Shown piece by piece: positions 44,891 to 64,000 of a stretch of DNA of 64,000 nucleotides (position 1 is its first letter; each line of letters begins with the position of its first letter). Location of the stretch: NCBI GenBank assembly GCA_029245245.1, contig JAQWPT010000038.1:33052-97051 (forward strand), written 5' to 3'. Both the position numbers and the translations under genes were made by a program. Below the pieces are notes generated by a model. It made no database searches and was not told the DNA's origin. It saw only the letters and a program-made list of their open reading frames with translations. This DNA comes from Phycisphaerales bacterium (GTDB lineage: Bacteria > Planctomycetota > Phycisphaerae > Phycisphaerales > SM1A02).

Positions 44891-46549
44891 ATGAGAAAGA
44901 TCCACAGCAAAATGTATGGACGACACATCTGTGCACTCAGCGCACTCAGTGCACTGGGGTGCCTTGCGGCCTCAAGCATCGCATCTGCAGACATGACGTT
45001 TTACGTCGAGAACTCCACGACAAATATTCCCGACAAGGACATCTACATCTGGTTTGATACGACATGGGGCTGGCCAGGGAGCAGCCCTACTCCTGCTCAA
45101 CAGGGCATTCCGATCACGCAACTCACCCCCGTTTCACCCACTGATGATGGGATCGGCGGAACCTATTCGTTCACCTGCTCCAGCGCTTCGGGTTCCAGAC
45201 TCTACCTGTCAACCAACAAACCGATGATGGGGGGAATACCAAGCCAAAGTGATTTCGCACAGGGTTCACCAGACACATATACCCCTTTCACCATGCTCGA
45301 GTTCGATAGTTCGAACGGATGGAACGTTGACTTGTCGTATGTAGACAGTTACAGCTTTCCCATCAGTGCCCACATCCAACAAGGCCATGATGACATCAGC
45401 AGCCTTCCCTTTGTCGGCAGCGATGCTGATGTCGTAACGAGTCTCGAAGACGCCACGAGTTCTGCGCCAAGCGGCCAGTGGATCATCCGCAAGAACAAAC
45501 GATTCATACGATGCGTCAGTCCAAACGTATACTTCCCCGCCACGGGTCTGGCCCCCTACGACACCTGGACCAACCCCTGGCCGAAGTTCTATGACTACAT
45601 CCAGGCCCATAAGTCAGACATGAACACACCCGTAATGAAATGGGATGTCCAATGCGATGGGGTCTTCAGCGGCGAACTGCTCCTCTACGAGGATTCATCG
45701 GTTCCAGGAAACATGGTGCTAGAAGTCATGAATAACGGACAGTCGGTGAAGAAGATCTCGGATGACCACAACAGCGTGCTCCTTGATACGTTCCTGTATA
45801 CGGGGGGGCAAGGGGTTGATCTCTCGATCAAGCTTGCCAACATGGCTCTCGTGTACGGCTTCGTGGGCAGCACCGCAGATCTGGACTCGAAAGACCTCTC
45901 GTCTAACATAGGTTGCCCAAATTGGACGATCCCAGGATGTGCCTCTGATGACGTCAAATGGGCCAACTGCACGGCCGCTCCATATTCTCTAGACCTGTAC
46001 AACAAGGTCTCGCCCGGCAGCGGCAGCACGACCGTCAACAACCTTGTCTTGTCAGGGACAAACCCCCCCCTCGACGGCGATAAACTTCGGTGGATCATCG
46101 CGCAGGGTGCGGATCTGCAGCCTTCCAATACATACTACAGCACCTATTCCAACGCCATCATGGGAACCATTCAATCGGGTTGCTGCGACGCGGTCAATGA
46201 CACATGGGTCGGGTACAACGCGGGCTACACACACCAGAGCGCCGACGTCTGGAACAGCATGAAGGTCGACATGGTTTCCCAGTCCCCCCAACAATGTGGA
46301 CAGGGTACTGAACCCTCATCGTGCATTGACCGAATTCTGCTCAAGGTCATGCCCAACCAGACCTACACGGCAGGTCCTGCGGACATCAATGGCGATGAAA
46401 TTGTCAATGTCCTGGATCTTCTGGAGGTCCTCGATGACTGGGGGGCATCTCTCGAGGGTGATCAGTACCTGTCTGATGTAAATACTGATCTTGCCGTGGA
46501 TGTCACGGACCTCATGGCGGTGATCGATGACTGGGGACGCCAGTCATAA
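44891..46549 (+). CDS. secreted GH64 / thaumatin-like (beta-1,3-glucanase-like) protein with C-terminal dockerin-like module
   Basis: ORF 44678..46549 trimmed to ATG 44891 (signal MRKIHSKMYGRHICALSALSALGCLAASSIASA). The patterns TFYVENST..DIYIWF, SGSRLYLS and FTMLEFDSSNGWNVDLSYVDSYSFPIS resemble GH64-TLP superfamily blocks (from memory, not searched). GC is about 45-55%, clearly below the flanks. Confidence 0.55.
   Translation: MRKIHSKMYGRHICALSALSALGCLAASSIASADMTFYVENSTTNIPDKDIYIWFDTTWGWPGSSPTPAQQGIPITQLTPVSPTDDGIGGTYSFTCSSASGSRLYLSTNKPMMGGIPSQSDFAQGSPDTYTPFTMLEFDSSNGWNVDLSYVDSYSFPISAHIQQGHDDISSLPFVGSDADVVTSLEDATSSAPSGQWIIRKNKRFIRCVSPNVYFPATGLAPYDTWTNPWPKFYDYIQAHKSDMNTPVMKWDVQCDGVFSGELLLYEDSSVPGNMVLEVMNNGQSVKKISDDHNSVLLDTFLYTGGQGVDLSIKLANMALVYGFVGSTADLDSKDLSSNIGCPNWTIPGCASDDVKWANCTAAPYSLDLYNKVSPGSGSTTVNNLVLSGTNPPLDGDKLRWIIAQGADLQPSNTYYSTYSNAIMGTIQSGCCDAVNDTWVGYNAGYTHQSADVWNSMKVDMVSQSPQQCGQGTEPSSCIDRILLKVMPNQTYTAGPADINGDEIVNVLDLLEVLDDWGASLEGDQYLSDVNTDLAVDVTDLMAVIDDWGRQS
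46382..46537 (+). other. dockerin-like two-segment Ca-binding module (C-terminal)
   Basis: DINGDEIVNVLDLLEVLDDWG ... DVNTDLAVDVTDLMAVIDDWG. Confidence 0.65.
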
Positions 46550-46559
46550 GAACAAATGC

Positions 46560-46615
46560 GGGGCATTGGTCTTCCCAGACCTATTGGGGAGCGTGCGAGT
46601 AAGTCCTGCATCAAC
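46560..46615 (+). repeat. direct repeat copy B, immediately after the GH64-like stop
   Basis: GGGGCATTGGTCTTCCCAGACCTATTGGGGAGCG...CCTGCATCAAC. See copy A. Confidence 0.85.
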
Positions 46616-46628
46616 AAACCCGTTCACA

Positions 46629-46668
46629 CCACGGCCCCCGCCATTGAGCGAGGGCCGTGGCTCTTTTT
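46629..46668 (+). terminator. Rho-independent terminator (stem shared with the hairpin at 47217)
   Basis: CCACGGCCC - 14-nt loop - GGGCCGTGG, followed by CTCTTTTT. Confidence 0.6.
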
Positions 46669-47216
46669 GCAGAGCAGCAGATCCCCTGCACGCGTGCCGG
46701 CCCCAACTTCGTTGTGTCGAGCACGACGCCGCCTCGCGCATACCCACCGCAGTCGTAACACGATCCGGCCTTTTGGCAATGGCCGTTTCCAGCCCACATG
46801 AACCGCGCACTTTCGCTGCAGGTTTCCCAGTGTGACACGAGCAATTTCAGTTCGAAGAAATTTCGACGCTCTTTCTCGTCGCCACACAAGTGGCCGGTAG
46901 AACATGCCCTACGCGAAACGGATTCGCAACGGCACGCACGGAAACCACACAGGACTCCCCCATGACCCGTACCCCCCTTCTTCATTCGACCCAGGGCATC
47001 CCCGCACCCTTGCCCACCCACCATCGCCCCTCCACCCGTGGCACGGATCCCCGCACCAGGCGGACCTGATTTCCCGTCGCCCGATCCCCTGTTCGAAGCC
47101 CAGGTGGAGTGCAGTTTCCACGACGAAACTGATGCACGGAATGCATGGTGATCCTGGAACGGCTGCACCTCCCAGCGGAGACCAGGACCACCCCCACCGC
47201 CAGGCGACGATCAGCC

Positions 47217-47249: not shown

Positions 47250-47289
47250 CTGCATGGAGTCCCGAACATTCGGATAGGATGCCCCCGCG

Positions 47290-47363: not shown

Positions 47364-47382
47364 TTCCGTCGCCAGGAATCGA

Positions 47383-48618
47383 TCAGCCCAGGGGCAGGGT
47401 CAGCACCGGGGCGGACTGGCTGGAATCACCGCCACTGATCTGCAGGTTCATCAGTTCGACCGCAAGCGTGAAGGCACGCTTGGATGCCAGTTCGTGGTCG
47501 TCGATGTAAAACCAGTAGTTCCTGCTTTGCACCGCAACCCAGGCGTTCTCCGGGCGAGTACGGCCCTCGTGGATGTGCAGGATCAGCCGCAGGTGCTCCT
47601 CGGCACTGATGGCCAGGTCGCCGCTGGCGAACCCGGGGACGACGATTCCGGCATCCTGGTCCTTGGCGGGCAGGTCGACCGCGAGACTCAGGAAGTTCAT
47701 CACCCCATAGAACGAACGCGTTCGTATGCGGATGCTGTCCGTTGTCGAAGTCGGGGACGTCTGGTACTTGAGGTTGCCCAACCAGTAGAAGGGCGCCTCG
47801 GGGTCGAGATTCAGAAGCGAGAGGAAGATCCGCCCCGCCTCCGTCTCCCGGGCCGAGGGCTCGATCCAGATGATCGGTTCAAGGCCGTAGGTATGCAGGG
47901 CCCATTCCCCGGAGCCGTCATCCTTTTCCTTCCATCGCTTGCCGCTCTGGATCGCGGCCAGGTGGTCCGCGGGTCGAAGGTCCGCGACCCCGACGCTGCC
48001 CTCGTAGTTGTCGTAGGCCTTGAGGAAGCCGCAGATGATCTCATCACGCTCCTGCAACGTGGTGATGGCCCCGATGAGTTTTCCGAACTCGGCGTCCCCA
48101 CCACGGATCGGCAGGCTGCCACCGACGTCGAAACTCCGAACCCCGTTGGCGTTCTCCACCAGCAGGACGAAGAGGTGATCGAGGCGGTAGCCCGCACCGG
48201 ACAGGTAGGCGATGTTCGTGGGATCGATCGAACCGAGCATCTGCTTGGCGACCGCCTCGCCCTGGCGAGGCTCGATGGAGATGGTGGGGCTGTCCATGAA
48301 GGTGAGGTTTCCGTCGATGCCCCAGGCCATCGGACTCGTCACCGCATTGGGCCATGCCAGGTCGGTACTTCCACCACCACTGGTCTGGAACTGGGTGGTG
48401 ATCCCGGACACGGAGACGAACTGCGGCGCCTCGGCGTAGCGCATCCGCACGATGTTCAGCAGGAGTTCCTCGTTCATCACCTGCCGCACCGCCTTGTTGT
48501 AGTCGATGTGGCTGTTCATGATCAGTTTCGGGCCGTTGGTACAGCCCGGGAGCAGCAGGCTGATCAGCACCGCGCTGGCGAGAGAACTGGCGAGAGAAGA
48601 GGTGTGCCGTGTCATCAT
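47383..48618 (-). CDS. hypothetical lipoprotein (411 aa)
   Basis: Signal plus lipobox MMTRHTSSLASSLASAVLISLLLPGC. Balanced coding-like composition (N, K, Y, F, I present), unlike the Arg/Gly-rich antisense ORF 47323..48687. Confidence 0.65.
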   Translation of the reverse strand: MMTRHTSSLASSLASAVLISLLLPGCTNGPKLIMNSHIDYNKAVRQVMNEELLLNIVRMRYAEAPQFVSVSGITTQFQTSGGGSTDLAWPNAVTSPMAWGIDGNLTFMDSPTISIEPRQGEAVAKQMLGSIDPTNIAYLSGAGYRLDHLFVLLVENANGVRSFDVGGSLPIRGGDAEFGKLIGAITTLQERDEIICGFLKAYDNYEGSVGVADLRPADHLAAIQSGKRWKEKDDGSGEWALHTYGLEPIIWIEPSARETEAGRIFLSLLNLDPEAPFYWLGNLKYQTSPTSTTDSIRIRTRSFYGVMNFLSLAVDLPAKDQDAGIVVPGFASGDLAISAEEHLRLILHIHEGRTRPENAWVAVQSRNYWFYIDDHELASKRAFTLAVELMNLQISGGDSSQSAPVLTLPLG

Positions 48619-48653
48619 GGAGTCTCCTTGGCGTGCCAGTGTAAACCATGCAT

Positions 48654-48683
48654 GCGAAACGGGCCGCCCCCGAGGGGCGGCCC
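48654..48683 (-). terminator. possible intrinsic terminator after the 48712 lipoprotein gene
   Basis: Perfect 10-bp GC stem GGGCCGCCCC/GGGGCGGCCC with a 3-nt loop. On the minus strand it is followed only by GTTTCG, a weak U-tract. Confidence 0.4.
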
Positions 48684-48711
48684 GTGAATCGCTCGAGTCG
48701 TGGAAGGCGAA

Positions 48712-49668
48712 TCAGTTGCCGCCTGGATGCTGATCACTGCCACCCATCATGCCGGCAAGGCCGGCGATGGCCTGGTCGAACTCCTCCTGGGTCGCAGCGT
48801 TCTCGAAATGACTGAGGCCCAGATTCACCATTTGGAGCACTGCCTCGGCCTGCGCCACTTGCTGCGAACTGGTGGACATGTCCTCGTTGTCCAGTTGCTG
48901 CTTCGCCTCCGCCAGGGAGCGAGGGACAACAGCCGCCATCATGGTCGGGACCCACCTGCCGTCAACCTTTGACATGGGCACCTGGGCTGGAATCGGGTTC
49001 ACTCCCGCAGGAAGTTCAGGCATGGTGACGCTCACCATGGCCGTGTCATCCTTTTCGGTGTCCACCTTCGCGGACAACTTCTTGACAGCCGTAAAGAATT
49101 CCAGGGCCTGGGCGGCATCGGGTTCTTCGGTGGCGGCTGTCTTCACGATGGACATCATGGCCGCATGGAGTTCAGGGCCATAGTTCGTCAGGAAATTCGT
49201 CATGTTGAACTTCTTGAGTCCCGCGACGGTGGACAGGTCGCTGCTGGTGATCGCATCGCCGATCTTGACGATATCGTCGTAGGTCTCGGCGGCCTGTTCC
49301 TTCTCGGTGGCTGTCATGGTCGCCACCTGCTCCTTGACCATCGGGGTGTTCATGATGAACTGCTTCTTGTCCTTGAGGATCGTCACCACCCTCTTCATGG
49401 TGGCCATGACATCGTCGTAGAGCTCGGCCGGGACCTTCTTGCCGAACTCGTGAACGAGTCCATCGACATCCTGCTGCCAAGTGGCGGGCACGGTGTCCCA
49501 AAGGAGGACTGGCTTGTCCTCAACCATGGACTCGCGAAGGCCGTCAAACATGGCTGTCGGAGTCGAGGGGGCGGCCTTGTCGCACCCGATGAGGGCGAGT
49601 GGGGCCACGGCGGCCAGGACCACCACGAAACGTATCAACTGGCTGAACATCATGAATCTCCTCTTCAT
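48712..49668 (-). CDS. hypothetical lipoprotein (318 aa)
   Basis: ORF 48712..49812 trimmed to ATG 49668: MKRRFMMFSQLIRFVVVLAAVAPLALIGC (lipobox). Helical, with K/E/M/A-rich composition. Confidence 0.6.
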   Translation of the reverse strand: MKRRFMMFSQLIRFVVVLAAVAPLALIGCDKAAPSTPTAMFDGLRESMVEDKPVLLWDTVPATWQQDVDGLVHEFGKKVPAELYDDVMATMKRVVTILKDKKQFIMNTPMVKEQVATMTATEKEQAAETYDDIVKIGDAITSSDLSTVAGLKKFNMTNFLTNYGPELHAAMMSIVKTAATEEPDAAQALEFFTAVKKLSAKVDTEKDDTAMVSVTMPELPAGVNPIPAQVPMSKVDGRWVPTMMAAVVPRSLAEAKQQLDNEDMSTSSQQVAQAEAVLQMVNLGLSHFENAATQEEFDQAIAGLAGMMGGSDQHPGGN

Positions 49669-49929
49669 GTCTTTGAAATCTGCAACAGGCGAGATGCCTG
49701 CTCCCACAAGAACGCAAGAGGGTACGGGCCGTCCCTGCTGCTGTCGAGAACAGTGGAACATGGTGTCCGGGAATCCTCGAATATCCACCCCGTCGTGGTC
49801 AAAAACATGCAAACCGGGCGAAGAAAGAGGCTTCCAACTCCATAGAGGGGGATATCTTGAAGTATTGACCTCGTACAGATGGACGCAGCTCCTGCTGCTT
49901 CTTCATCCCCCTTCCCCCGGAGTACGTAC

Positions 49930-50991
49930 ATGATTCAGCGCCTCGCCACCCTGCTTGTGATCGTCGGCCTGGGATCGATTGCCACTGCCGATTCGATGAC
50001 TCGCCTTGGCTGCGACAGCGACTGCAATCTCGACGGACAGGTGAACGTCGATGACCTGCTGAACATCATCTCCAACTGGGGCCAGGCCGGCTGCAACACC
50101 AGCCAGATCGGCGTCGATGATCTGCTCTTGGTCATCAGCGAATGGAACAGGCCCTGCCACCCCTTCATGATTGATCACCCGCTGGGCATCGAGGTCGACT
50201 TCCAGGCCGAACCCGGCTTTGCGATCATTCGCGCCACCGGCCTCGCCGAGCACACCATGGGACCCTTCGACGGTTCCACCGGCTGCTTCAACCCCAACTC
50301 CCCCGGAAACCAGAACGACGAATGGCGAATCCCGATCATTCCCACGGCGACGAACGACCCTGCCGTGTCCGTACTGGACACGCTCGGCCCCACCGCCCTG
50401 TACTACAACGGCGTCGCCCTCTACAACCCGTACGACGGCGGCTCGATGGAGGCGCCCGGCAACATCTGCATGGACGACTACAACGGGCACCCCTCGCCCG
50501 ATCTCCGCTACCACTACCACCAGTATTCACCGGTCGACGGTGACAACGGGGCAACCCACTCCCCCATCGTCGGCTACGGTTTTGACGGCTACCCGATCTA
50601 TGGCCCTTGGGAATCCAACGGCGTCCTGGCCGCCCAGTCCGGCAATCCACTGGATGAATGCAGCGGTCACCATGACGATCTGCGTGGATACCACTACCAC
50701 AGCGTCAGTTACGACCTGGGTGTCCAGTACGGGCTGCCCGGCGACGGATTTCCCTGGGCCCTTGGCTGCTACCGCGGTGAACCCGAGCCCTCCAACTTCG
50801 CCGGTGACGGCGGTGGCGGCGGTGGTGGCGGATGCAACGGATGTGCCAGCGTCATGGCCCCTCCCCCGGTCTGCAACTGCCTCGAAAACATACCTGCCTA
50901 CGCACCATGCTGCCTCGACTGGACCACCGGGGCGAACGGAACTCCCGATTGCTACGCTGGTGCTGCAACGTACTGCGGCTGGAGTCCCTGA
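49930..50991 (+). CDS. secreted YHYH-domain protein with N-terminal dockerin-like module and Gly/Cys-rich tail
   Basis: Trimmed to ATG 49930 (signal MIQRLATLLVIVGLGSIATA). Two YHYH motifs (LRYHYHQY, RGYHYHSV) in a PF14240-like arrangement. C-terminal GGGGGGGGCNGC...CNC...CC. Confidence 0.75.
   Translation: MIQRLATLLVIVGLGSIATADSMTRLGCDSDCNLDGQVNVDDLLNIISNWGQAGCNTSQIGVDDLLLVISEWNRPCHPFMIDHPLGIEVDFQAEPGFAIIRATGLAEHTMGPFDGSTGCFNPNSPGNQNDEWRIPIIPTATNDPAVSVLDTLGPTALYYNGVALYNPYDGGSMEAPGNICMDDYNGHPSPDLRYHYHQYSPVDGDNGATHSPIVGYGFDGYPIYGPWESNGVLAAQSGNPLDECSGHHDDLRGYHYHSVSYDLGVQYGLPGDGFPWALGCYRGEPEPSNFAGDGGGGGGGGCNGCASVMAPPPVCNCLENIPAYAPCCLDWTTGANGTPDCYAGAATYCGWSP
50011..50157 (+). other. dockerin-like two-segment module (N-terminal)
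   Basis: CDSDCNLDGQVNVDDLLNIISNWGQAGC ... IGVDDLLLVISEWNRPC. Confidence 0.6.
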
Positions 50992-51009
50992 CCCGACCGC
51001 CTGGAACGC

Positions 51010-51594: not shown

Positions 51595-51598
51595 ATCC

Positions 51599-52921: not shown

Positions 52922-53064
52922 GCCTCGAATCGGGCCTGAAAGTGGATTGGAGCCAGAAAACATGGCTCCTTCGGCCGCTTTCATCCTTGATGTCCCCCTC
53001 CTGATGCCACAGAATGGAAGCAGCGCACCGCTGCCCGAACTGGGCCACTCGAGGAGAGAAGACG

Positions 53065-55083
53065 ATGCCCCATGCTTCCGCACGGCCTGTTGGCCTGCTT
53101 GGACTCCTGCGTCCGATGCAGTTCCTGATGATTCTCGTTGCATGCTGCCTGGTCAGCCCGATGGTCATGGCCCAGGGAGACCCGTGCGATACCGATCCGT
53201 GTTACGACGAGTCGTGCCCCGGGTACGATCCCTGCGAATGCGGAACGGGAGATCCCTGCGAATGCGGCTGGGGCGACCCCTGTGAATGCGGCGATGCGGA
53301 CCCGTGCGACTGTGGCTGGGGCGATCCCTGTGAATGCGGTTGGGGTGACCCCTGCGAATGCGACCCCGACCCCTGCGATCCCGCCTGTGGTGGCGATCCC
53401 TGTGACCCGGCATGTGGTGGTGATCCGTGCGATCCCGCCTGTGGTGGCGATCCCTGCAGCCTCGAGTGCAACCCGGATCCCTGCAGCGATCCCAGCAGCG
53501 AGTGCTACGACGAGTGCGAATGCACCTACTGCCTGTACCCGGACTGCCCGGACTACGACGAGTGCGAATGCTTCGGCGGTCCGCTGAGTTGCAATCCACT
53601 CTGTGACGAGTACGACCCCTACTGCAGTGGCGAGTGCCCCGAATACGACCCCTGCCAGTGTCCCGGCGCCGACCCCTGTGACTGCGGAATGGGTGATCCC
53701 TGCGAGTGCGATATTGATCCCTGCGATCCGGCCTGCGGTGGCAACCCGGAGTGCGACCCCGACTGCGGCGGCGACCCCTGCAGCGTCGGCTGCGGTGGCG
53801 ACCCCTGTGATGCCGGCAGTGAATGCTACGACCCCTGCGACACGAGTTGCCCCGACTACGACATCTGCAACTGCGACCCGCCCCTCTGCGTCCCCCCGTA
53901 CAACGACGATTGCGACCAGCCCGAGGCGATCTATGACGGCCTCACCCTCTTCGATACCACCTACGCCACCGCCGGCGTGCCCTTCAATGACTTCACCGCG
54001 TGTACGAACCTCGGCAACGGGATCGTGCACAAGGACATCTGGTACACGCACGAGGCAACCTGCACCGGCACCCTGGTGCTTACCACCTGCACCGGGACCT
54101 ACTGGGATACCCGGATCGCCGTCTACGACGGCCTATGCCCCACTGGCACCATGCTCACCTGCAACGACGATGGCGACGGCTGCAATGACTACACCTCCTA
54201 CCTTGAAATGGATGTCACGGCCAACACGGTCTACATCATTCGACTCGGTGGATTCGGTTACAACGACGCGGGTGTGGGGCGTCTCTGGGTTGAGTGCACT
54301 CCAGCTCCCAGCTCTTGCGAGGATCCACTGCCGGATTGTCCCACGGACATCGACGGCAATGGGTCCACGGATATCCTCGACCTGCTGGCCGTGCTCAACG
54401 ACTGGGGCCAGTCCGGTCCGCCACGACCCGCCGGCGACTGCTCACCCGGCGAATTCGGCGACTGTGTCGTCGACATCTTCGACCTGCTCGCGATCATCAA
54501 CGCCTGGGGTCCCTGCCCCGTTCCATGCAACGATCCGTGCTATGCCGAGTGCGACAACTACGACCCCTGCGACGAGTCATGCGGCGGCGAGTGCAACCCG
54601 GACTGCCCGGACTACGACGAGTGCTACTGCGTCGGTGATCCGTGCAACCCGGACTGCCCGGACTACGACGAGTGCGCCTGCATCGGTGGCAGCGATCCCT
54701 GTGACCCGGCATGTGGCGGTGATCCGTGCGATCCCGCCTGTGGCGGCGAGCCCTGTGACCCGGCATGCGGCGGTGACCCCTGTGATCCCGCCTGTGGTGG
54801 CGATCCCTGCAGCCTCGAGTGCAACCCGGATCCCTGCAGCGATCCCAGCAGCGAGTGCTACGACGAGTGCGAATGCACCTACTGCCTGTACCCGGACTGC
54901 CCGGACTACGACGAGTGCGACTGCTTCGGCGGTCCGCCGAGTTGCAATCCACTCTGTGACGAGTACGACCCCTACTGCAGTGGCGAGTGCCCCGAATACG
55001 ACCCCTGCCAGTGTGCCGGCGCCGACCCCTGTGACTGCGGAATCGGTGATCCCTGCGAGTGCTGGGGCGAAGGCTGCCCCTGA
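53065..55083 (+). CDS. secreted Cys/Asp/Pro micro-repeat protein with central beta-sandwich (PPC-like) domain and internal dockerin-like module
   Basis: ATG 53065 is preceded by GAGGAGAG. Signal ...LMILVACCLVSPMVMAQ. By hand count, about 110 Cys in 672 aa. Repeats are G-x-GDPCEC, DPCDPACGG and CPDYDEC. The other two frames and the antisense strand are also open, but only this frame has a signal peptide and globular domains. Confidence 0.75.
   Translation: MPHASARPVGLLGLLRPMQFLMILVACCLVSPMVMAQGDPCDTDPCYDESCPGYDPCECGTGDPCECGWGDPCECGDADPCDCGWGDPCECGWGDPCECDPDPCDPACGGDPCDPACGGDPCDPACGGDPCSLECNPDPCSDPSSECYDECECTYCLYPDCPDYDECECFGGPLSCNPLCDEYDPYCSGECPEYDPCQCPGADPCDCGMGDPCECDIDPCDPACGGNPECDPDCGGDPCSVGCGGDPCDAGSECYDPCDTSCPDYDICNCDPPLCVPPYNDDCDQPEAIYDGLTLFDTTYATAGVPFNDFTACTNLGNGIVHKDIWYTHEATCTGTLVLTTCTGTYWDTRIAVYDGLCPTGTMLTCNDDGDGCNDYTSYLEMDVTANTVYIIRLGGFGYNDAGVGRLWVECTPAPSSCEDPLPDCPTDIDGNGSTDILDLLAVLNDWGQSGPPRPAGDCSPGEFGDCVVDIFDLLAIINAWGPCPVPCNDPCYAECDNYDPCDESCGGECNPDCPDYDECYCVGDPCNPDCPDYDECACIGGSDPCDPACGGDPCDPACGGEPCDPACGGDPCDPACGGDPCSLECNPDPCSDPSSECYDECECTYCLYPDCPDYDECDCFGGPPSCNPLCDEYDPYCSGECPEYDPCQCAGADPCDCGIGDPCECWGEGCP
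53242..53361 (+). repeat. 5 x 24-nt coding tandem repeat (G-x-G-D-P-C-E/D-C)
   Basis: Read from the sequence and translation: GTGDPCEC GWGDPCEC GDADPCDC GWGDPCEC GWGDPCEC. Confidence 0.85.
53368..53448 (+). repeat. 3 x 27-nt coding tandem repeat (DPCDPACGG)
   Basis: Direct reading; synonymous differences between units. Confidence 0.85.
53438..53709 (+). repeat. copy 1 of a 272-nt intragenic duplication
   Basis: Matches 54791..55062 with 4 mismatches by eye. Offset is 1353 nt, which is in frame (451 codons). Confidence 0.85.
54337..54516 (+). other. dockerin-like two-segment module (internal)
   Basis: CPTDIDGNGSTDILDLLAVLNDWGQSG ... GDCVVDIFDLLAIINAWGPC. Confidence 0.65.
54694..54801 (+). 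repeat. 4 x 27-nt coding tandem repeat (D/EPCDPACGG)
   Basis: Direct reading. One more unit than the N-terminal array. Confidence 0.85.
54791..55062 (+). repeat. copy 2 of the 272-nt intragenic duplication
   Basis: See copy 1. The differences give E->D, L->P, P->A and M->I. Confidence 0.85.
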
Positions 55084-55509: not shown

Positions 55510-55662
55510 GGGTCAATACTCACATTCTGATTGAAACGAAGTGTATCGCAGCAGGAGAAGGCTCGTTCCAAGCAGGTTTCGATTGACCGGACCACGATTG
55601 CTTCCAAGGTTGGAGAATCAAGGACGACGACAGTTTATTCTGCCGACTCAGGAGACCAAACC

Positions 55663-57099
55663 ATGCAACGACGCACTCTCTTCTCCATCGTGGCCGTCAG
55701 TGGCCTGTTACTGGCTCCCGGCACCATGCTCGCCAGCGAACCATGTGATGCCGACATCAACAACGATCAACAGGTCGATATCGGCGACCTCCTGGGCGTG
55801 CTTGGCGACTGGGGGCCATGCCCCGAACCGCCGGCCTCCTGCCCGGCCGACATCGACGGGACCGGATCCGTGAACGTCAGCGACATGCTCACGGTGCTCT
55901 CGGGCTGGGGCCCGTGCCCGGAGACGGATGAAGACCAGCGAATCGTCGCCTACTACATCGAATGGGGCATCTACGGCCGCGACTACCAGCCGATGGACAT
56001 CCCTGCCGACAAGATCACGCACATCAACTACGCATTCGCCAACATCAGTGAAGATGGCCGGATTGCCCTCGGCGATCCCTACGCCGCCATCGACAAATAC
56101 TACGAAGGCGACACGTGGGACCAGCCCTACCGCGGCACCTACAACCAGATCAACAACGTGCTTCGAGGTCAGTATCCGCACATCAAGACCCTGATCTCCG
56201 TCGGTGGCTGGACCTGGTCCGGCAGATTCTCCGACATCGCGCTTACGAACGAATCGCGGGCGATCTTTGCCGAATCATGTGTGGACTTCATTCGCCAGTA
56301 CAACTTCGATGGCGTCGACATTGACTGGGAATACCCCGTCTGCTGTGGGCTCTCTTCGAACACATACCGTCCGGAAGATCGAGAGAATTACACGCTGCTG
56401 CTCCAGGAACTGCGTACCCAACTCGACGCTGCCGCGACCGAGGATGATCGGGAGTACCTGCTCACCATCGCTGCGCCTGCGGGTTACGACAAGATCGAGA
56501 ACCTCGAACCCGACGGCATCGCGGAGTCCTGCGACTGGATCAACGTGATGACGTACGACCTTCACGGAGCATGGGACCTGAGTCTCACCAATCACCACAG
56601 CAAGCTGTACCCGAACCCAAATGATCCTGGGGACGAGGACATTGCGACGCTCTACAACGCCGCTGCATCCATCCAGAACTACCTCGATGCAGGCGTCCCC
56701 CCGAATGAACTGGTTCTCGGTGTCCCCTTCTACGGACGTGCCTGGGGCGGCGTCGGACCCGACCAGGGCGGGCTCTTCCAGTCCGGCAGTCTCATACCTC
56801 CGGGCACCTGGGACGACTGGAGCAGCGGCGCGACCGGAATCAACGACTGGTTCCAGATCGAACAGTTCATCGAAAGCGGCCTCTACACCCGGTACTGGGA
56901 TGACGACTCGAAGGTCCCATGGCTCTACAGCCCCACCGAGCATGGTGGACACTTCATCTCCTACGACGACGAGGAATCGTTGCAGCACAAGGTCGACTTC
57001 ATCCGCGAACAAGGCCTCGGTGGCGCCATGTTCTGGGAGATCACTGGCGATCGAAACGAAACCCTGCTCGATGTGCTGCAGCCGTTGACGAGACCCTGA
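55663..57099 (+). CDS. GH18 chitinase with N-terminal dockerin-like module
   Basis: Trimmed to ATG 55663 (RBS AGGAGA; signal MQRRTLFSIVAVSGLLLAPGTMLA). Catalytic motif FDGVDIDWEYP, SVGGWTWS, and the ..MTYDLHG.. and ..GGAMFWE blocks. Confidence 0.85.
   Translation: MQRRTLFSIVAVSGLLLAPGTMLASEPCDADINNDQQVDIGDLLGVLGDWGPCPEPPASCPADIDGTGSVNVSDMLTVLSGWGPCPETDEDQRIVAYYIEWGIYGRDYQPMDIPADKITHINYAFANISEDGRIALGDPYAAIDKYYEGDTWDQPYRGTYNQINNVLRGQYPHIKTLISVGGWTWSGRFSDIALTNESRAIFAESCVDFIRQYNFDGVDIDWEYPVCCGLSSNTYRPEDRENYTLLLQELRTQLDAAATEDDREYLLTIAAPAGYDKIENLEPDGIAESCDWINVMTYDLHGAWDLSLTNHHSKLYPNPNDPGDEDIATLYNAAASIQNYLDAGVPPNELVLGVPFYGRAWGGVGPDQGGLFQSGSLIPPGTWDDWSSGATGINDWFQIEQFIESGLYTRYWDDDSKVPWLYSPTEHGGHFISYDDEESLQHKVDFIREQGLGGAMFWEITGDRNETLLDVLQPLTRP
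55744..55917 (+). other. dockerin-like two-segment module (N-terminal)
   Basis: CDADINNDQQVDIGDLLGVLGDWGPCP ... CPADIDGTGSVNVSDMLTVLSGWGPC. Confidence 0.65.
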
Positions 57100-58488: not shown

Positions 58489-60945
58489 TCAGGATCCCTT
58501 CTTTTCGCCCCCGGACCAATCCTTCCCGAGGCCGGGAACCATCGCCACCTGCTGGTCCGTCAACTGCAGCTCCAGCAGGATCCGGGTCTGATCATTGAGT
58601 TGGCGACGCCGGTACCGCAACTGCTCCATCTTCATGTATTGCTTCATCGACTCGCTGCTGGGAGGCCATGAACGCTCCGCATCCTGGCGGCCCTTGGCTC
58701 CATCGAGGATCTGCACGGTGAGGTCCCGGTACTGGCTGCGGTACTCAAGAGCGAGATCGTTGATCAGTTCCCGCTGGTCTGCAGAGAGACCCTCCAGTGC
58801 AAGCGTGCCATCGATCTGTTCATCAGCGATCCACGGGTCCTTGAACACGTCGGGATAGGCCTTCCGCTCGTACATGTCCTGAACGAGCATGATGCGGTCT
58901 TCGGGAATTTCCTGAAGGATGCCCTCGTAGGTCATTCGATTCGTCTTGGCCATGCGAGCCGCGATTTCACTCATCTCGGATCTGCCGTTTTCCCATCGCT
59001 CGTAGAGGCGTTTTCTCAGGTCTTCATCGATGTCGCCTTCGCCCTCTCCCCAGAGGCGATCCTCGAGACTCTTGACACGGTCGTAACTGGTCTCAATCGC
59101 ATCGATGTCGGTCATCGATGCGGCGTTGTATTCGATGAGCACGTCGATCATGAACTGGCGGGACTCTTCATCAAGTGTTTCCGGATCGATGGCCAGTACG
59201 ATTTCACCGATGTCGATCGTCCCCTCCGTGGATCCACGAAGTGACCAGTTCCCGTTCCAGATCTTCTGGCGACGGCGGGCACGGTCATGCGACACGCGGA
59301 TCTGGTCCAGCAGGTCGGGCTGGGTATCGGGCGGAAGCACCATGGACATGTCCGCAAAGAAGGCATCTTCGGCCTCCTTCAACTTCGGCAGCATCTCCGC
59401 CTGCAGAGCCCTGCGAACCTTCCTCCGCTCACGCCACCCCTGGTCGGTTTCCAGAGCGGAGTACCCGTCGGTCAGACGCTGGTCGTACTCAACCGACAGC
59501 GATTCGTAACTCGTGGTGTACTGGTCGTAGAGTGATTCCAGGACACTCGCGTCCATGTCCTGCAGGCCAAGCCAGGCCGAGAACTGTTCGACACTCACCG
59601 GCTCCATGGGAGCCATGGGCAAGTTGTAGGTTCGACCGGTGGAGGCATCCGGCTTGTCGGATCCTGATCGACCACGGGCCCACCGTACCTCCCGCGTGTC
59701 CTCTTTCTTCTCACCGTCCATCAGTTCCATCTGCTCGTCGGTGAGGATGCTTGCAAGGCTCGTTTCGCCGCTGGCGACAAGATCTTCCATTCGCCCATCG
59801 AGTCGCTCCAGTCGCTCGTCATGCTCACCCGGAACATCACCTTCCAACTGCTCAGCCGTCCGATAGGCCCACGAATCCTGGAATGCTTCGGCCACCTGGG
59901 GAAACAGGGCCAGCCAGCGACTTCGATAGTCGGCCTGGGCCGACTCCAGGAGGAGCACCTGGTCCTCGGTCACGCCATCGAGTTTCATGGCCCGGCTGAA
60001 GCGACGATCCGCTCGCTGCACACCACCATTCTCGTACGACGTATCTGCGTACTCGAAGGTCAACTGCACCCAGTTCTCTTCACCGAGAACCTCCCTGATC
60101 TGCATCGCGGTCTGGAGATTCAATCGCCCCATCTTGTCGACGGTCTTCTGGATGGGCTTGCTGTTCTCATTGAAGAAGGCGATGAGCCGATCCTGCATTC
60201 CTCCCTCGGTCCACAACTCCATCATCTGCTGCATGTCCATGTCGCGGAGACCGAGTTCATCCACGAGATCGAGAACCTGATCGACGATCTTGAGCAAGTC
60301 GTCCTGGAACTGGACCACCAGGTAGAGCATCCTCGTTTCGAACGAGTCGGTCACCTGGCGGATCGCAGCCAACTGGTCCGGAGACAGATCGGTTCGATCG
60401 ATCCATTCCAGGATGTTGAACTGGATGCCCTCATTGAACCGGCTGGCCAGCATGAAGTGCGGCATGATGTAATTCGAAAGTTTGCGCCGCCTGCGAGCCC
60501 GCTCAAGGGCCGGCAGCTGCTCTTCGATGACCAGCATGTTGATGCTGTCGAAGTAGGCCGAGTCGATCCGGTTGAACTTGTCATAGATATCGAGGGCCAT
60601 CTTCAGCAGGTCCTCGATGTCCTTGCGGGGAGGAATGGTGATCGAGCCGCCCATCCAACTGCCCATCAACTGGCCCATGGCGAGACCGTCATCGATGAGT
60701 TCGCCGACTTCACGCTCCTGCAACTGCTCGTACTCCGCCTGGTAGCGGGTGTAGAGCGACATCATCTGGGCCTGCTGCTCCCTGGACAGTTCCAACTCAA
60801 CGGCAAGATCCCTGAGGTCATCGATGCTGACCGGCTGGATCAGGAACGGGAACCGCTGGGCCTGTGCAGTTGAAACCATGCCCGGCATGAACCAGGCAGC
60901 GAGGGTGATGAGCAGGACCAGGAATGGAGGAGTTCGGTGCAGCAT
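58489..60945 (-). CDS. secreted all-helical protein built from repeated LTxxQ-type (Spy/CpxP-like) modules
   Basis: ORF 58489..61110 trimmed to ATG 60945 (signal MLHRTPPFLVLLITLAAWFMPGMVSTAQA). Six L/V-[ST]-x-[DE]-Q motifs (LSREQ, LSPDQ, VTEDQ, LTDEQ, LSADQ, LTDQQ), each followed by Tyr-rich helices (..YTRYQAEYEQL, ..LEYRSQYRDL). Confidence 0.6.
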   Translation of the reverse strand: MLHRTPPFLVLLITLAAWFMPGMVSTAQAQRFPFLIQPVSIDDLRDLAVELELSREQQAQMMSLYTRYQAEYEQLQEREVGELIDDGLAMGQLMGSWMGGSITIPPRKDIEDLLKMALDIYDKFNRIDSAYFDSINMLVIEEQLPALERARRRRKLSNYIMPHFMLASRFNEGIQFNILEWIDRTDLSPDQLAAIRQVTDSFETRMLYLVVQFQDDLLKIVDQVLDLVDELGLRDMDMQQMMELWTEGGMQDRLIAFFNENSKPIQKTVDKMGRLNLQTAMQIREVLGEENWVQLTFEYADTSYENGGVQRADRRFSRAMKLDGVTEDQVLLLESAQADYRSRWLALFPQVAEAFQDSWAYRTAEQLEGDVPGEHDERLERLDGRMEDLVASGETSLASILTDEQMELMDGEKKEDTREVRWARGRSGSDKPDASTGRTYNLPMAPMEPVSVEQFSAWLGLQDMDASVLESLYDQYTTSYESLSVEYDQRLTDGYSALETDQGWRERRKVRRALQAEMLPKLKEAEDAFFADMSMVLPPDTQPDLLDQIRVSHDRARRRQKIWNGNWSLRGSTEGTIDIGEIVLAIDPETLDEESRQFMIDVLIEYNAASMTDIDAIETSYDRVKSLEDRLWGEGEGDIDEDLRKRLYERWENGRSEMSEIAARMAKTNRMTYEGILQEIPEDRIMLVQDMYERKAYPDVFKDPWIADEQIDGTLALEGLSADQRELINDLALEYRSQYRDLTVQILDGAKGRQDAERSWPPSSESMKQYMKMEQLRYRRRQLNDQTRILLELQLTDQQVAMVPGLGKDWSGGEKKGS

Positions 60946-61110
60946 CCGGGTGGCTTTCTGGAGAAGAGGGAGGAGAAATGGAAAGACCATTCTAGCGGTT
61001 GGACCCCCGGATTCCTCTCTGGTTCCAGAAATGGGCCACCATTGAACAGGAAACGGGGCCCCGTTTCCGGGGCCCCGTCGTTCGTCGATTCCTGGATTGA
61101 TACCACTCAC

Positions 61111-61809: not shown

Positions 61810-61828
61810 CAGACGTCTCCTTCTGTTG

Positions 61829-61856
61829 GCAGGCCAGTTGCTTCCCTCTGGCCTGC
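61829..61856 (-). promoter_or_regulatory. perfect 9-bp hairpin just upstream of the RBS of the B12-binding-like gene
   Basis: On the minus strand: GCAGGCCAG-10 nt-CTGGCCTGC, then CAACAGAAGGAGACGTCTG-GTG. No U-tract, so it is not a terminator. Confidence 0.3.
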
Positions 61857-62097
61857 ATCACCTTGGTTCAAGTCCCAGGGAATCGACGATCCCCACGCGT
61901 GGTCAATCCACGCTCCAACCCGGGACATCGAACCACGACACGTCCTGACTGAACACGTCGACACATGATCGATGGAAAGGAGTTACCGGACCTGGTTTGG
62001 CGCAAATGCTGCGCCGATCTGAACCCGGCTACCCCCTCTGGTAAGTAAATACCCGTACACACTGGTTTCTTTCGATGAAAGCGATCCCGCGAAGGAA

Positions 62098-64000
62098 TCA
62101 GTCGCAGGGGCCCCACATGCTGATGATGCTCAACAGGTCGACGACGTCCACCATCCCATCATCATTGGCATCTCCTTCGGGACCACTTCCCCCCCACTCT
62201 GCGATGACCTTCAGCAGGTCCTGCACATCGACCAGGCCATCGGGTACGACGTCGGCCGGGCATGTGTTTTCCTCGGGAACGGGAACCCAGTTCACGACGG
62301 TCAGCAGCAGGCTGCGACGAACCGAATCATCCAGCACCGCCTCCAGCGGGAAGGCCCAGAACACCGTGCGCCATGTTTCATCAAGAACATTGACGCCGAT
62401 GACTCCCTCTTCCCCGGTGAAACAGACCTCCGCGTTCGCGGCCGCCTCCAGGGAATCGGTGTAGTTGTTGAAGGGACACGTGAGGGTCATCGTGCCGTAA
62501 CCGCCGAACAGTGAACCCGATCCGGTCACAGTGGCCTGCCCCACGTCGCTGTCGTAGTCGGAAACACCCAGGTAGGAACTTCCGAACGGAGTCAGTCCAC
62601 GGTCGTAGAGATAGTCCTGGCTGGAGAGCCAGAAGACACCGCCCTCATCGAGCCAGGCGGCGAGATCCACTTCAGCGGCATCGCCCGGTCCGGCGAACCC
62701 ACCCCACTCGGCGCCCGTGAACCAGATGACGAGGTCGTAGTTGCGCAGGGTATCGAGGTCGGGCTCGTTGTCGGTGTTCATGGTGTCCCACACATCGAAC
62801 TCGAGCCCCAGGTCGTTCATTGGTGAGGTGTAGTAGGCCTGCACATCAGGAGTGTTGTCATCGTCATCGACCAGCAGCACATGGATCCCCTCCGAGGTGG
62901 TGAAGGAGGACGTGTCCGACCAGTCGCCCAGTCCACAGGCACTTGATGCCCGCACACGCCAGTAGTAGCTCTGGCCGTAAGACAGGTTCGTCTTCACAAG
63001 ATGCTCGGTAGTGGTGGCCATCGCGGAATAGATCATGTCCGTGAACATCACGTCCGAGGCGATCTCGAGGTCGAAACTGGTGCCACCTTCCATCGCCCAG
63101 GTCAGCATGGGCATGGTCGAAACATCGATCTCACCATCGGCGGGCTGCAGCAGTTCAGGCAATCCGCTGAAGGGGGTGACGATCATGATCTCCCCGATGA
63201 CTTCCACCTGTTGACCACCAGCCATTCCGACGATGCTGTACTCCTCACTGCCCGATGCCCCCTCTGACACGGTCACCGTGAGGGCCGTCTTGTCCGGGGT
63301 GGTCAGGACGTCGTCCTGAAGTTCAAGGTTGATGTGCATGGGCCCCAGGGCATTGAGCGTGACCGACAGGCCAGGCGTGACGGACTGCACCTCGACGATG
63401 CACTCGACCGTCCCGGGGGCACAGATTTCAATGACCGGTGGATCCAGCATGATGGTGAATGGATCCGCCTTGCAATTCATGCAGACCAGGGCGAAATCCT
63501 GATCGCTGCCGTCACCGAATCCGGGAATGCCGTCGGAGTTGATGTTGGATGCCAGGACCCGGATGGTGGCGGATGATGGAGCAGTCGGTCCGAGGAAAAC
63601 CGCCTCGGTGTTGTTCATGACGTCCGGTGGGCCGTCGGCATTGGACCACCCGCTGGAGGGATCGATGTCGTTGCCCGCGTACTCCGCTCCGGAGACTTCG
63701 ACCACCAGATCGAGATCGTTCGTCCATGCCGGTGTACTGCCACCAAGCCCGTGCCCGGGCGCCGTGGTCCATGCGAGCATGATGCGCATCGGCTTGGACG
63801 AATCCAGCGGCTCGACGGCGATGGACCATTCCTCACCACTGTCGCCGAATACCACCGACTGGTCGTAGTAGCGAATGCCCTCGAGGTCCGGGTCAATCAA
63901 CTCGGAGATGGCCAGACGCCCCCATCCCTGCTTCGAATCGGGTGGATGCGACAGGGTGTACCCGTCCGCGTCTTCACCCCCATCCAGTGCCTTGGCGGCC
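62098..64000 (-). CDS. large secreted multi-domain protein, probable subtilisin-like (S8) peptidase C-terminal part with C-terminal dockerin-like module (5' end beyond the window)
   Basis: The frame stays open to base 64000 (..DSKQGWGRLAISELIDPD.., which resembles the end of an S8 catalytic domain). Then come beta-sandwich domains, an FN3-like segment (..YYWRVRASS..), and an IHVLLVDDDDN.. alpha/beta domain. Confidence 0.6.
   Translation of the reverse strand, partial: AAKALDGGEDADGYTLSHPPDSKQGWGRLAISELIDPDLEGIRYYDQSVVFGDSGEEWSIAVEPLDSSKPMRIMLAWTTAPGHGLGGSTPAWTNDLDLVVEVSGAEYAGNDIDPSSGWSNADGPPDVMNNTEAVFLGPTAPSSATIRVLASNINSDGIPGFGDGSDQDFALVCMNCKADPFTIMLDPPVIEICAPGTVECIVEVQSVTPGLSVTLNALGPMHINLELQDDVLTTPDKTALTVTVSEGASGSEEYSIVGMAGGQQVEVIGEIMIVTPFSGLPELLQPADGEIDVSTMPMLTWAMEGGTSFDLEIASDVMFTDMIYSAMATTTEHLVKTNLSYGQSYYWRVRASSACGLGDWSDTSSFTTSEGIHVLLVDDDDNTPDVQAYYTSPMNDLGLEFDVWDTMNTDNEPDLDTLRNYDLVIWFTGAEWGGFAGPGDAAEVDLAAWLDEGGVFWLSSQDYLYDRGLTPFGSSYLGVSDYDSDVGQATVTGSGSLFGGYGTMTLTCPFNNYTDSLEAAANAEVCFTGEEGVIGVNVLDETWRTVFWAFPLEAVLDDSVRRSLLLTVVNWVPVPEENTCPADVVPDGLVDVQDLLKVIAEWGGSGPEGDANDDGMVDVVDLLSIISMWGPCD
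62101..62262 (-). other. dockerin-like two-segment module (C-terminal)
   Basis: CPADVVPDGLVDVQDLLKVIAEWGGSG ... DANDDGMVDVVDLLSIISMWGPCD. Confidence 0.65.

What the first reader, a model, noticed from the sequence alone, without database searches (positions are those of the whole stretch)
44891..64000. Five secreted proteins within 20 kb share the same two-segment dockerin-like module placed at N-terminal, internal or C-terminal positions
Five proteins carry the module: the GH64-like protein (46382-46537), YHYH protein (50011-50157), Cys-rich protein (54337-54516), GH18 chitinase (55744-55917) and the probable S8 peptidase (62101-62262). Each carries a tandem pair of roughly 22-aa segments of the form C-x-x-D-[IV]-[DN]-x-[DN]-x-x-[VI]-x-[VI]-x-D-[LM]-L-x-[VI]-[LI]-x-x-W-G-x-C. 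The D-x-[DN]-x-[DN] loop plus helix is the F-hand layout of type I dockerins. The conserved W-G-x-C ending and flanking Cys are not part of the classical clostridial motif. The module is shuffled onto unrelated catalytic domains, which suggests a common targeting or assembly system. No cohesin-like partner is evident in the window, so the receptor is unknown. The Cys-rich protein and the cell surface are both candidates.
Basis: partly seen in the sequence, partly recalled or inferred. Interest (0 to 1): 0.65.

Follow-up and report, generated by a model that had tools for sequence, protein, structure and literature searches.

The report
Dockerin modules on five secreted proteins
Five secreted proteins of a marine Phycisphaerales (Planctomycetota) bacterium each carry a divergent, mostly cysteine-flanked copy of the well-known calcium-binding dockerin module; the family is very large and already modelled, and its docking partner is not in this window.

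Summary
Five ORFs in the last 20 kb carry a two-segment module at the stated coordinates, and nothing else in the 64 kb does.

The module is a dockerin:
- The only Pfam and NCBIfam matches to the module are Dockerin_1 (PF00404) and "GC-type dockerin" (NF041540), all just below cutoff. Close homologues and the S8 orthologue pass.
- 104 of 116 top family representatives hit PF00404.
- An AlphaFold2 model (pLDDT 94.7) matches solved dockerins in ranks 1-25.

The family is very large, with 75,839 clusters at E ≤ 0.001. A cohesin/dockerin "planctosome" has already been proposed for freshwater Phycisphaerae (PMC6461901).

W-G-x-C and the flanking Cys are typical of this family. How the Cys co-occur suggests two disulfide staples, which is inference only.

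No cohesin was found in 39 window ORFs. A neighbouring lipoprotein is not cohesin-like, and the Cys-rich protein's central domain is galactose-binding-like. Two of the five genes lie in blocks absent from an ~88-90% identical relative.

Verdict: a new member of a known kind, and the receptor is unresolved. Interest 0.3.

The parts
44891..46549 (+). GH64-like secreted protein. It starts at Met72 of the ORF that begins at 44678 and has a C-terminal dockerin module without Cys.
   Evidence: Translation. Pfam Glyco_hydro_64 24.2 bits (below GA 27) and Dockerin_1 18.3 bits. The gene is absent from the 88-90% identical contigs L080 and L081.
46382..46537 (+). Dockerin module of the GH64-like protein: DINGDEIVNVLDLLEVLDDWG ... 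DVNTDLAVDVTDLMAVIDDWG.
   Evidence: 37.6 and 37.8 bits. NF041540 16.3 bits.
49930..50991 (+). YHYH-domain secreted protein. Its probable start is Met18 of the ORF that begins at 49879. The dockerin module follows a signal-peptide-like start.
   Evidence: Translation. Pfam YHYH 49.6 bits. It lies in the block 48688-52693, which is absent from L080.
50011..50157 (+). Dockerin module of the YHYH protein. The second segment has lost the Ca2+ loop.
   Evidence: 39.6 and 29.9 bits. NF041540 14.0 bits.
53014..55083 (+). Cys/Asp/Pro-rich secreted protein. Repeats flank a galactose-binding-like domain (aa 292-435) and an internal dockerin. The start codon is uncertain.
   Evidence: Translation. PF23759 26.5 bits for the central domain. 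Internal 300-nt direct repeat at 96% identity. Orthologue in L080.
54337..54516 (+). Dockerin module of the Cys-rich protein. The second loop is degenerate (GEFGDC).
   Evidence: 36.7 and 42.7 bits. NF041540 22.6 bits over model positions 1-63 of 67.
55663..57099 (+). GH18 chitinase with an N-terminal dockerin after a signal-peptide-like start.
   Evidence: Glyco_hydro_18 314 bits. This exact 478-aa product is called on two public contigs. 25 orthologues carrying the module, nearly all in bins labelled Phycisphaerae, Phycisphaerales or Planctomycetota.
55744..55917 (+). Dockerin module of GH18, the four-Cys form.
   Evidence: 40.1 and 42.7 bits. AF2 pLDDT 94.7. Foldseek best hit 2y3n_B, TM 0.78/0.80.
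62098..64000 (-). C-terminal 633 aa of a probable S8 peptidase. The gene runs off the window end and ends in a dockerin.
   Evidence: Translation and frame analysis. The syntenic orthologue L002:8435-11977 has Peptidase_S8 84 bits and Dockerin_1 24.2 bits, and is 67% identical.
62101..62262 (-). Dockerin module of the S8 protein, the two-Cys form with first and last Cys only.
   Evidence: 38.0 and 41.0 bits. NF041540 27.7 bits against cutoff 29.

Best explanation
The five modules are divergent members of the dockerin family. Each is a duplicated F-hand, that is, a Ca2+-binding loop followed by a short helix. They belong to the variant common in Planctomycetota/Phycisphaerae, with per-segment consensus C-P-A-D-[LVI]-[DN]-G-D-G-x-V-[ND]-V-x-D-L-L-x-[LV]-L-x-x-W-G-P-C.

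Shown: the family assignment by profile, and a predicted dockerin fold.

Inferred from how the Cys co-occur: one disulfide joins the first and last Cys, clamping the N- and C-termini of the module. A second disulfide closes the linker between the two segments.

Inferred from homology only: the module is a Ca2+-dependent protein-docking device. It would hold secreted polymer-degrading enzymes (a putative beta-1,3-glucanase, a chitinase and a peptidase), the YHYH protein and a galactose-binding-like protein on a cohesin-type partner. That partner would be a scaffold or a cell-surface protein encoded elsewhere in the genome, so that a planktonic cell does not lose its exoenzymes to diffusion. This matches the 'planctosome' idea proposed for freshwater Phycisphaerae.

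The module tolerates N-terminal, internal and C-terminal placement because its two ends lie next to each other.
For: Sequence matches:
- The only Pfam match to the module region is Dockerin_1, in four of the five proteins (12-18 bits).
- The only NCBIfam match to the module is dockerin_GC. It covers model positions 1-63 of 67 in three of the five modules (16-28 bits).
- Homologues P0005 and P0008 pass NF041540 (31.7 and 32.0 against 29).
- The L002 S8 orthologue passes PF00404 (24.2 against 22.9).
- 104 of 116 top family representatives hit PF00404, best E 2e-55.
- NCBI names close relatives 'dockerin type I domain-containing protein [Phycisphaerales]'.
- A profile search of PDB sequences ranks dockerins first (5lxv_B, 4u3s_B, 2y3n_B, 2b59_B), ahead of calmodulin.

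Fold:
- AF2 gives pLDDT 94.7, with one helix per segment.
- Foldseek ranks 1-25 are all dockerins, the best with TM 0.78/0.80 and probability 1.0. EF-hand proteins score TM 0.2-0.3.

Ca2+ ligands:
- Positions 1, 3, 5, 9 and 12 carry D/N/T in six of the ten segments.

Cys patterns in 96 modules:
- CCCC 47 and C--C 33, so the two inner Cys are present or absent together.

Carriers:
- Four of the four carriers with visible N-termini have signal-peptide-like starts, judged by eye. So does the S8 orthologue.
- Carriers in relatives are other secreted-type proteins.

Literature:
- Cohesin/dockerin 'planctosome' in Nemodlikiaceae (PMC6461901).
- A two-cohesin scaffoldin in Limihaloglobus sulfuriphilus, which I take to be a member of Phycisphaerae (PMC11557425).
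Against: - No cohesin (PF00963) or other candidate receptor was found in the 39 window ORFs scanned. None appeared among genes near dockerin genes on other contigs.
- The rest of the genome could not be searched.
- All five modules fall below both curated cutoffs.
- Surface positions that recognise cohesin in clostridial dockerins (10/11, 15, 18, 19) are not conserved among the five modules.
- In GH18 orthologues the module diverges much faster than the catalytic domain: 62% against 82%, 54% against 79%, 47% against 73%. That would be unusual for one shared receptor, unless the receptor co-evolves or binding uses the conserved W-G-P-C face.
- Three segments have degenerate Ca2+ loops.
- No member of this Cys-flanked variant has been studied experimentally, as far as I could find.
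Confidence: 0.55

Rival explanations
1. It has the dockerin fold but does not depend on cohesin. The module binds something else, such as a cell-envelope glycan or S-layer component, or an uncharacterised protein domain. Alternatively it acts only as a Ca2+- and disulfide-stabilised connector.
For: - No cohesin in the window or in the sampled neighbourhoods.
- Recognition-type surface positions are variable, and the module evolves quickly.
- The helix is shorter than in clostridial dockerins (9 residues).
- The conserved W-G-P-C tail is absent from the dockerin stretches shown in the PDB alignments.
- An unannotated domain of about 180 aa alternates with these dockerins in 15 of the 150 top representatives. 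It has no Pfam or PDB match.
- From my own knowledge: Peer et al. 2009 reported many genomes with dockerins but few or no cohesins. I could not open that paper here.
Against: - Every solved structure the model resembles is a cohesin-binding dockerin.
- Cohesins are reported in other Phycisphaerae.
- Their absence from 64 kb says little about a genome of several Mb.
- The ~180-aa domain is absent from the window and from 1.1 Mb of related loci.
Confidence: 0.3
2. It is an ordinary EF-hand Ca2+ sensor or buffer domain that regulates the attached enzymes.
For: - Pfam EF-hand models hit many family members: EF-hand_6 in 76 of 116 and EF-hand_1 in 59 of 116.
- Calmodulins follow the dockerins in the PDB profile search.
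Against: - The model has one helix per segment (an F-hand), not helix-loop-helix.
- EF-hand structures align with TM of only 0.2-0.3, against 0.65-0.8 for dockerins.
- The proteins are extracellular, where Ca2+ is not a signal. This last point is inference.
Confidence: 0.05
3. It is a secretion or sorting tag, analogous to a T9SS C-terminal domain or PEP-CTERM, recognised by an export or anchoring machine.
For: It is found only on proteins with secretion-type features, and C-terminal placement is common.
Against: - It occurs at N-terminal, internal and C-terminal positions, and in tandem arrays. Sorting tags are position-fixed.
- Sec-type signal-peptide-like starts are already present.
- The fold is a dockerin.
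Confidence: 0.05

Closest known systems
Type I/II dockerins of cellulosomal Clostridia (Pfam PF00404), e.g. Bacteroides cellulosolvens Cel48 dockerin 2y3n_B, C. thermocellum 1ohz_B/2b59_B
   Same: - Duplicated segment of about 22 residues, with a D-x-[DN]-x-[DN]-G-x-[IV]-[DN]-x-x-D Ca2+ loop and a helix.
- Same predicted fold (TM 0.78/0.80).
- Attached to secreted hydrolases.
   Different: - Helices of only about 9 residues, ending in W-G-P-C.
- Up to four Cys, with inferred disulfide staples.
- Sub-threshold PF00404 scores (12-18 bits).
- No conserved Ser-Thr or Lys-Arg recognition pairs.
- N-terminal and internal placement.
- An aerobic marine planctomycete rather than an anaerobic Firmicute.
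- No cohesin seen.
NCBIfam NF041540, 'GC-type dockerin domain-anchored protein'
   Same: - It is the only NCBIfam hit for the modules and covers model positions 1-63 of 67 in three of the five.
- Homologues P0005 and P0008 of the same family pass its cutoff.
   Different: - The window's five modules score 14-27.7 bits against a cutoff of 29.
- The model's name implies a C-terminal anchor, whereas here the module is also N-terminal and internal.
- I found no paper describing the model.
'Planctosome' hypothesis for freshwater Phycisphaerae (Nemodlikiaceae), Andrei et al. 2019, PMC6461901
   Same: - Same class of bacteria.
- Dockerin modules on non-cellulolytic secreted enzymes, peptidases among them.
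- Proposed surface-tethered multi-enzyme complex.
   Different: - That model rests on identified cohesin-bearing anchor and adaptor proteins, and none is seen here.
- It is itself untested.
- The enzymes here include a chitinase and a GH64-like protein.
Non-cellulosomal cohesin-dockerin pairs of Clostridium perfringens glycosidases (NagH/NagJ, 2ozn_B)
   Same: - Dockerin used to assemble non-cellulolytic glycoside hydrolases.
- Foldseek rank 5, TM 0.66.
   Different: - Firmicute toxin-complex context.
- The partner cohesin is known.

Membership tests
Dockerin (Pfam PF00404 Dockerin_1) | Tandem duplication of a ~22-residue segment, each with a Ca2+-binding loop followed by a helix (F-hand). | tested here: met
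   All five modules have two segments. AF2 shows one helix per segment. Three of the ten loops are degenerate.
Dockerin (Pfam PF00404 Dockerin_1) | Score at or above the Pfam gathering threshold (22.9 bits). | tested here: not met
   Scores are 18.3, 15.5, 15.2 and 12.1 bits, with no hit for YHYH. However, the S8 orthologue scores 24.2, and 104 of 116 family representatives hit at E <= 0.001. The five modules are therefore divergent members, not outsiders.
Dockerin (Pfam PF00404 Dockerin_1) | Dockerin three-dimensional fold. | tested here: met
   This is a predicted structure only. AF2 pLDDT is 94.7. Foldseek ranks 1-25 are all dockerins, with best TM 0.78/0.80.
Dockerin (Pfam PF00404 Dockerin_1) | Ca2+-dependent binding to a cohesin module. 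| not testable with these tools
   No cohesin in the 39 window ORFs. The genome is not available, and binding needs an experiment.
NCBIfam NF041540 GC-type dockerin | Score at or above the curated cutoff (29 bits). | tested here: not met
   Scores are 18.4, 22.6, 27.7, 16.3 and 14.0 bits. Homologues P0005 (31.7) and P0008 (32.0) pass.
Canonical EF-hand (calmodulin-like) | Helix-loop-helix, with an entering helix before each loop. | tested here: not met
   There is no helix before either loop in the model. EF-hand structures align at TM 0.2-0.3.
Cellulosome / 'planctosome' system | A scaffold or anchor protein with cohesin modules encoded in the same genome. | tested here: inconclusive
   None in the window. 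The neighbouring lipoprotein is not cohesin-like: AF2 gives a mixed alpha/beta model, and Foldseek finds nothing above TM 0.13. The Cys-rich protein's central domain is galactose-binding-like. The rest of the genome is unseen.

The most novel reading that the evidence does not exclude
The W-G-P-C, Cys-flanked dockerins of marine Phycisphaerales do not use cohesins. Instead they dock onto a still-unrecognised receptor. Candidates are the unannotated ~180-aa domain that alternates with such dockerins in other proteins, or a cell-envelope component. This would define a second, cohesin-independent enzyme-tethering system, widespread in ocean bacterioplankton.
Probability: 0.15. Interest if true: 0.65.

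Novelty: new member of a known kind. Interest (0 to 1): 0.3.

Why it matters
It adds little as a family assignment. Dockerin modules on non-cellulosomal secreted proteins of Planctomycetota are already covered by Pfam, NCBIfam and the 'planctosome' literature.

Three things have some value:
- The locus is compact. It puts five different carriers (a chitinase, a putative beta-1,3-glucanase, a peptidase, a YHYH protein and a galactose-binding-like protein) side by side. That makes a convenient panel for pull-down or AF-Multimer searches for the receptor, which is still unidentified in marine Phycisphaerales.
- The Cys co-occurrence pattern gives a testable prediction of two stapling disulfides.
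- Two of the five genes lie in strain-variable insertions, so dockerin-tagged exoenzymes appear to belong to the flexible gene pool of this population.

Tried and rejected
1. Cohesin search. Pfam scans of 39 window ORFs found none. The first 44 kb are housekeeping genes, including the Bat/MoxR operon, glutamate dehydrogenase, UvrD and ribonucleotide reductase.

2. Neighbouring lipoprotein 47386-48618(-) as receptor.
- It has no Pfam or PDB sequence hit.
- AF2 with 31 homologues gives pLDDT 75.6 and a mixed alpha/beta model.
- Foldseek finds nothing above TM 0.13.
- In relatives at about 61% identity it sits among housekeeping genes.
- Rejected.

3. Cys-rich protein as receptor.
- The central domain has no PDB hit, and the word-index search found no homologue.
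- Pfam gives a near-threshold galactose-binding-like match.
- The same domain sits beside dockerins in other proteins.
- It is therefore a cargo or binding module, not a cohesin.

4. Gene neighbourhoods of small stand-alone dockerin proteins on long contigs showed no cohesin.

5. The exact-match look-up of the GH18 protein found only 2.5-kb contigs, so the window could not be extended.

6. The ~180-aa domain that alternates with dockerins in P0106, P0108 and P0115 has no Pfam or PDB match. It is not present in the window or the loci.

7. Literature. A search for 'GC-type dockerin' found 0 papers, and Peer et al. 2009 (PMC3035643) is not held.

8. I could not read model coordinates, so Cys-Cys distances were not measured.

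9. No signal-peptide predictor was available, so the signal peptides were judged by eye.

Full report
**1. Checking the observation**

The window has about 63% G+C. Translating the five stated intervals gives in-frame two-segment modules:
- GH64-like protein: DINGDEIVNVLDLLEVLDDWG...DVNTDLAVDVTDLMAVIDDWG
- YHYH protein: CDSDCNLDGQVNVDDLLNIISNWGQAGCNTSQIGVDDLLLVISEWNRPC
- Cys-rich protein: CPTDIDGNGSTDILDLLAVLNDWG...CVVDIFDLLAIINAWGPC
- GH18 chitinase: CDADINNDQQVDIGDLLGVLGDWGPC...CPADIDGTGSVNVSDMLTVLSGWGPC
- S8 protein: CPADVVPDGLVDVQDLLKVIAEWG...DANDDGMVDVVDLLSIISMWGPC

The fifth module is on the minus strand. It closes an ORF that runs off the window end.

I built an HMM from the ten segments and searched a six-frame translation of the whole window. 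It finds only these five ORFs, at 30-43 bits per segment, and nothing else above 6 bits.

The placements are as stated:
- N-terminal, after a signal-peptide-like start: YHYH and GH18.
- Internal: the Cys-rich protein.
- C-terminal: the GH64-like protein and the S8 protein.

The consensus motif is not universal:
- The GH64-like module has no Cys.
- The S8 module has only the outer two Cys.
- Three of the ten Ca2+ loops are degenerate.

**2. What the module is**

*Sequence evidence*
- Pfam gives Dockerin_1 as the only hit to the module region in four of the five proteins. The scores of 12-18 bits are below the gathering score of 22.9.
- NCBIfam gives NF041540, 'GC-type dockerin domain-anchored protein', as the only hit to the module. 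It covers model positions 1-63 of 67 in three of the five modules. Scores are 14-27.7 bits against a cutoff of 29.
- Close relatives do pass these cutoffs. P0005 and P0008 score 31.7 and 32.0 on NF041540. The syntenic S8 orthologue in Phycisphaerales UBA854 (L002) scores 24.2 on PF00404.
- A profile of the five modules finds 103 short proteins. Many have precomputed PF00404 or EF-hand hits, and NCBI names some of them 'dockerin type I domain-containing protein [Phycisphaerales bacterium]'.
- An 81-sequence profile was searched without a word index against 1.84 billion cluster representatives. It finds 75,839 clusters at E <= 0.001 and 18,324 at E <= 1e-10.
- Of the 116 top representatives scanned, 104 hit PF00404, with a best E-value of 2e-55.
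- Against PDB sequences the profile ranks dockerins first and calmodulins after them.

*Structural evidence*
- An AlphaFold2 model of the GH18 module has mean pLDDT 94.7, with one nine-residue helix per segment.
- Foldseek ranks 1-25 against the PDB are all dockerins. The best is 2y3n_B, with TM 0.78/0.80 and probability 1.0. EF-hand proteins align at TM 0.2-0.3.

The module is therefore a dockerin, of a variant already represented in curated libraries.

**3. What is particular about the variant**

Across 354 segments from 253 family proteins the per-segment consensus is C-P-A-D-[LVI]-[DN]-G-D-G-x-V-[ND]-V-x-D-L-L-x-[LV]-L-x-x-W-G-P-C:
- W is present in 74% of segments and W-G-x-C in 50%.
- A Cys lies before the loop in 64% and after the helix in 68%.

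W-G-x-C and the flanking Cys are absent from the clostridial dockerin stretches shown in the PDB alignments. They are, however, typical of this family.

In 96 complete modules the four Cys positions show the pattern CCCC 47 times and C--C 33 times. The two inner Cys are therefore present or absent together, while the outer two are nearly always present. I infer two disulfides:
- an outer one that clamps the module's N- and C-termini;
- an inner one that closes the linker between the segments.

I could not measure distances in the model, so this remains inference.

Adjacent termini would explain why the module can be inserted at either end of a protein or inside it. All three placements occur among the top representatives, as do tandem arrays.

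**4. Context**

The GH18 orthologues carrying the same N-terminal module nearly all come from bins labelled Phycisphaerae, Phycisphaerales or Planctomycetota, many of them marine. By blastp, the catalytic domain is up to 82% identical (L002).

The region from GH18 to S8 is collinear with L002 at 73-74% nucleotide identity.

Carriers in relatives include arylsulfotransferase, Lcl_C, BNR, LPMO10+CBM2, RCC1 and PMP-repeat proteins.

In the 32 related loci with at least one carrier (458 kb) there are only 5 further carriers. Five carriers within 16 kb is therefore unusually dense. Small clusters do occur elsewhere, for example three within 10 kb in L078.

Contigs L080 and L081 come from a population about 88-90% identical to the window. 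They are collinear with the window except for two blocks that they lack:
- 44527-46766, which holds the GH64-like gene;
- 48688-52693, which holds a lipoprotein, the YHYH protein, an AhpC/TSA-like protein and a CxxCH protein.

Two of the five dockerin genes are thus strain-variable.

**5. Receptor search**

No cohesin was found in the 39 window ORFs scanned with Pfam.

The lipoprotein between the GH64-like and YHYH genes is not a candidate:
- It has no Pfam or PDB sequence hit.
- Its AF2 model is mixed alpha/beta, with pLDDT 75.6.
- Foldseek finds no structural match above TM 0.13.
- It is not linked to dockerin genes in more distant relatives.

The Cys-rich protein is not a candidate either:
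- Its central domain is a near-threshold match to PF23759, a galactose-binding-like domain (26.5 bits against 27).
- The same domain recurs beside dockerins in other proteins.
- I read it as cargo, not as a scaffold.

Neighbourhoods of other dockerin genes showed no cohesin.

The literature contains relevant precedents:
- a proposed cohesin/dockerin 'planctosome' for freshwater Phycisphaerae (PMC6461901);
- a two-cohesin scaffoldin in Limihaloglobus sulfuriphilus (PMC11557425).

A cohesin elsewhere in this genome is therefore plausible, but it has not been shown.

**6. Mechanism**

The best-supported reading is Ca2+-dependent docking of secreted enzymes to a cohesin-type surface or scaffold protein encoded elsewhere. 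The identity of the module is near certain. The docking partner is inferred.

Two observations argue against a single shared receptor:
- The helix surface positions (11, 15, 18, 19) are variable among the five modules.
- In GH18 orthologues the module diverges faster than the catalytic domain: 62% against 82%, 54% against 79%, and 47% against 73%.

The main rival is a role that does not depend on cohesin.

**7. Verdict**

It is a divergent member of a very large dockerin family that has already been modelled, in a lineage where such systems have already been proposed. The receptor question remains open, and this window does not resolve it.

Noticed in passing
window 44527-46766 and 48688-52693: Both blocks are missing from contigs L080 and L081, which come from a relative about 88-90% identical and are otherwise collinear with the window. 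The blocks hold the GH64-like dockerin gene, and a lipoprotein, the YHYH dockerin gene, an AhpC/TSA-like gene and a CxxCH gene. G+C dips to 0.585 in 44-48 kb. They look like strain-variable insertions.
   Followed up: partly
window 53014-55083 (+): This is an unusual secreted protein. Long acidic Cys-rich repeats (GDPCECGW, DPCDPACGG) lie on both sides of a galactose-binding-like domain and a dockerin. The gene contains a 300-nt direct repeat at 96% identity (53368-53667 and 54721-55020). No Pfam family matches the repeats. An orthologue exists in L080.
   Followed up: partly
P0106, P0108, P0115, P0171, P0221 and others (representative proteins, not in the window): An unannotated domain of about 180 aa alternates with W-G-P-C dockerins (dockerin-X-dockerin-X-dockerin) in 15 of the 150 top family representatives. 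It has no Pfam or PDB sequence match. It could be a partner or cargo domain, and I could not fold it here.
   Followed up: partly
window 47386-48711 (-): This is a conserved lipoprotein of about 410 aa with an LLPGC lipobox, found in Phycisphaerae. It has no Pfam hit, and its AF2 model (pLDDT 75.6) matches no PDB structure. It may represent an undescribed fold or family.
   Followed up: yes
window 58492-61110 (-): This is an 873-aa protein with a signal-peptide-like start. It looks helical and Glu/Arg/Met-rich by eye and has no Pfam hit. It lies between the 3-keto-disaccharide-hydrolase-domain gene and a B12-binding-domain gene.
   Followed up: no
window 51010-52921 (+): An AhpC/TSA-like redoxin is followed by a 440-aa protein with a CxxCH haem-binding motif and no Pfam hit. 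Both lie directly downstream of the YHYH dockerin gene, within the same strain-variable block, so they may form a redox or metal-handling operon.
   Followed up: no
L017:239-2203, L042:7552-9315, L071:8486-10159: The galactose-binding-like domain of the Cys-rich protein recurs in related Phycisphaerales. In one case it sits directly before a dockerin at the N-terminus of a BNR-repeat protein. In two cases it occurs as tandem copies in the gene just upstream of the GH18 orthologue.
   Followed up: partly
window 55093-55512 (-): A small truncated-haemoglobin gene (Bac_globin) sits between the Cys-rich gene and the GH18 gene. The annotation comes from the identical contig L077.
   Followed up: no
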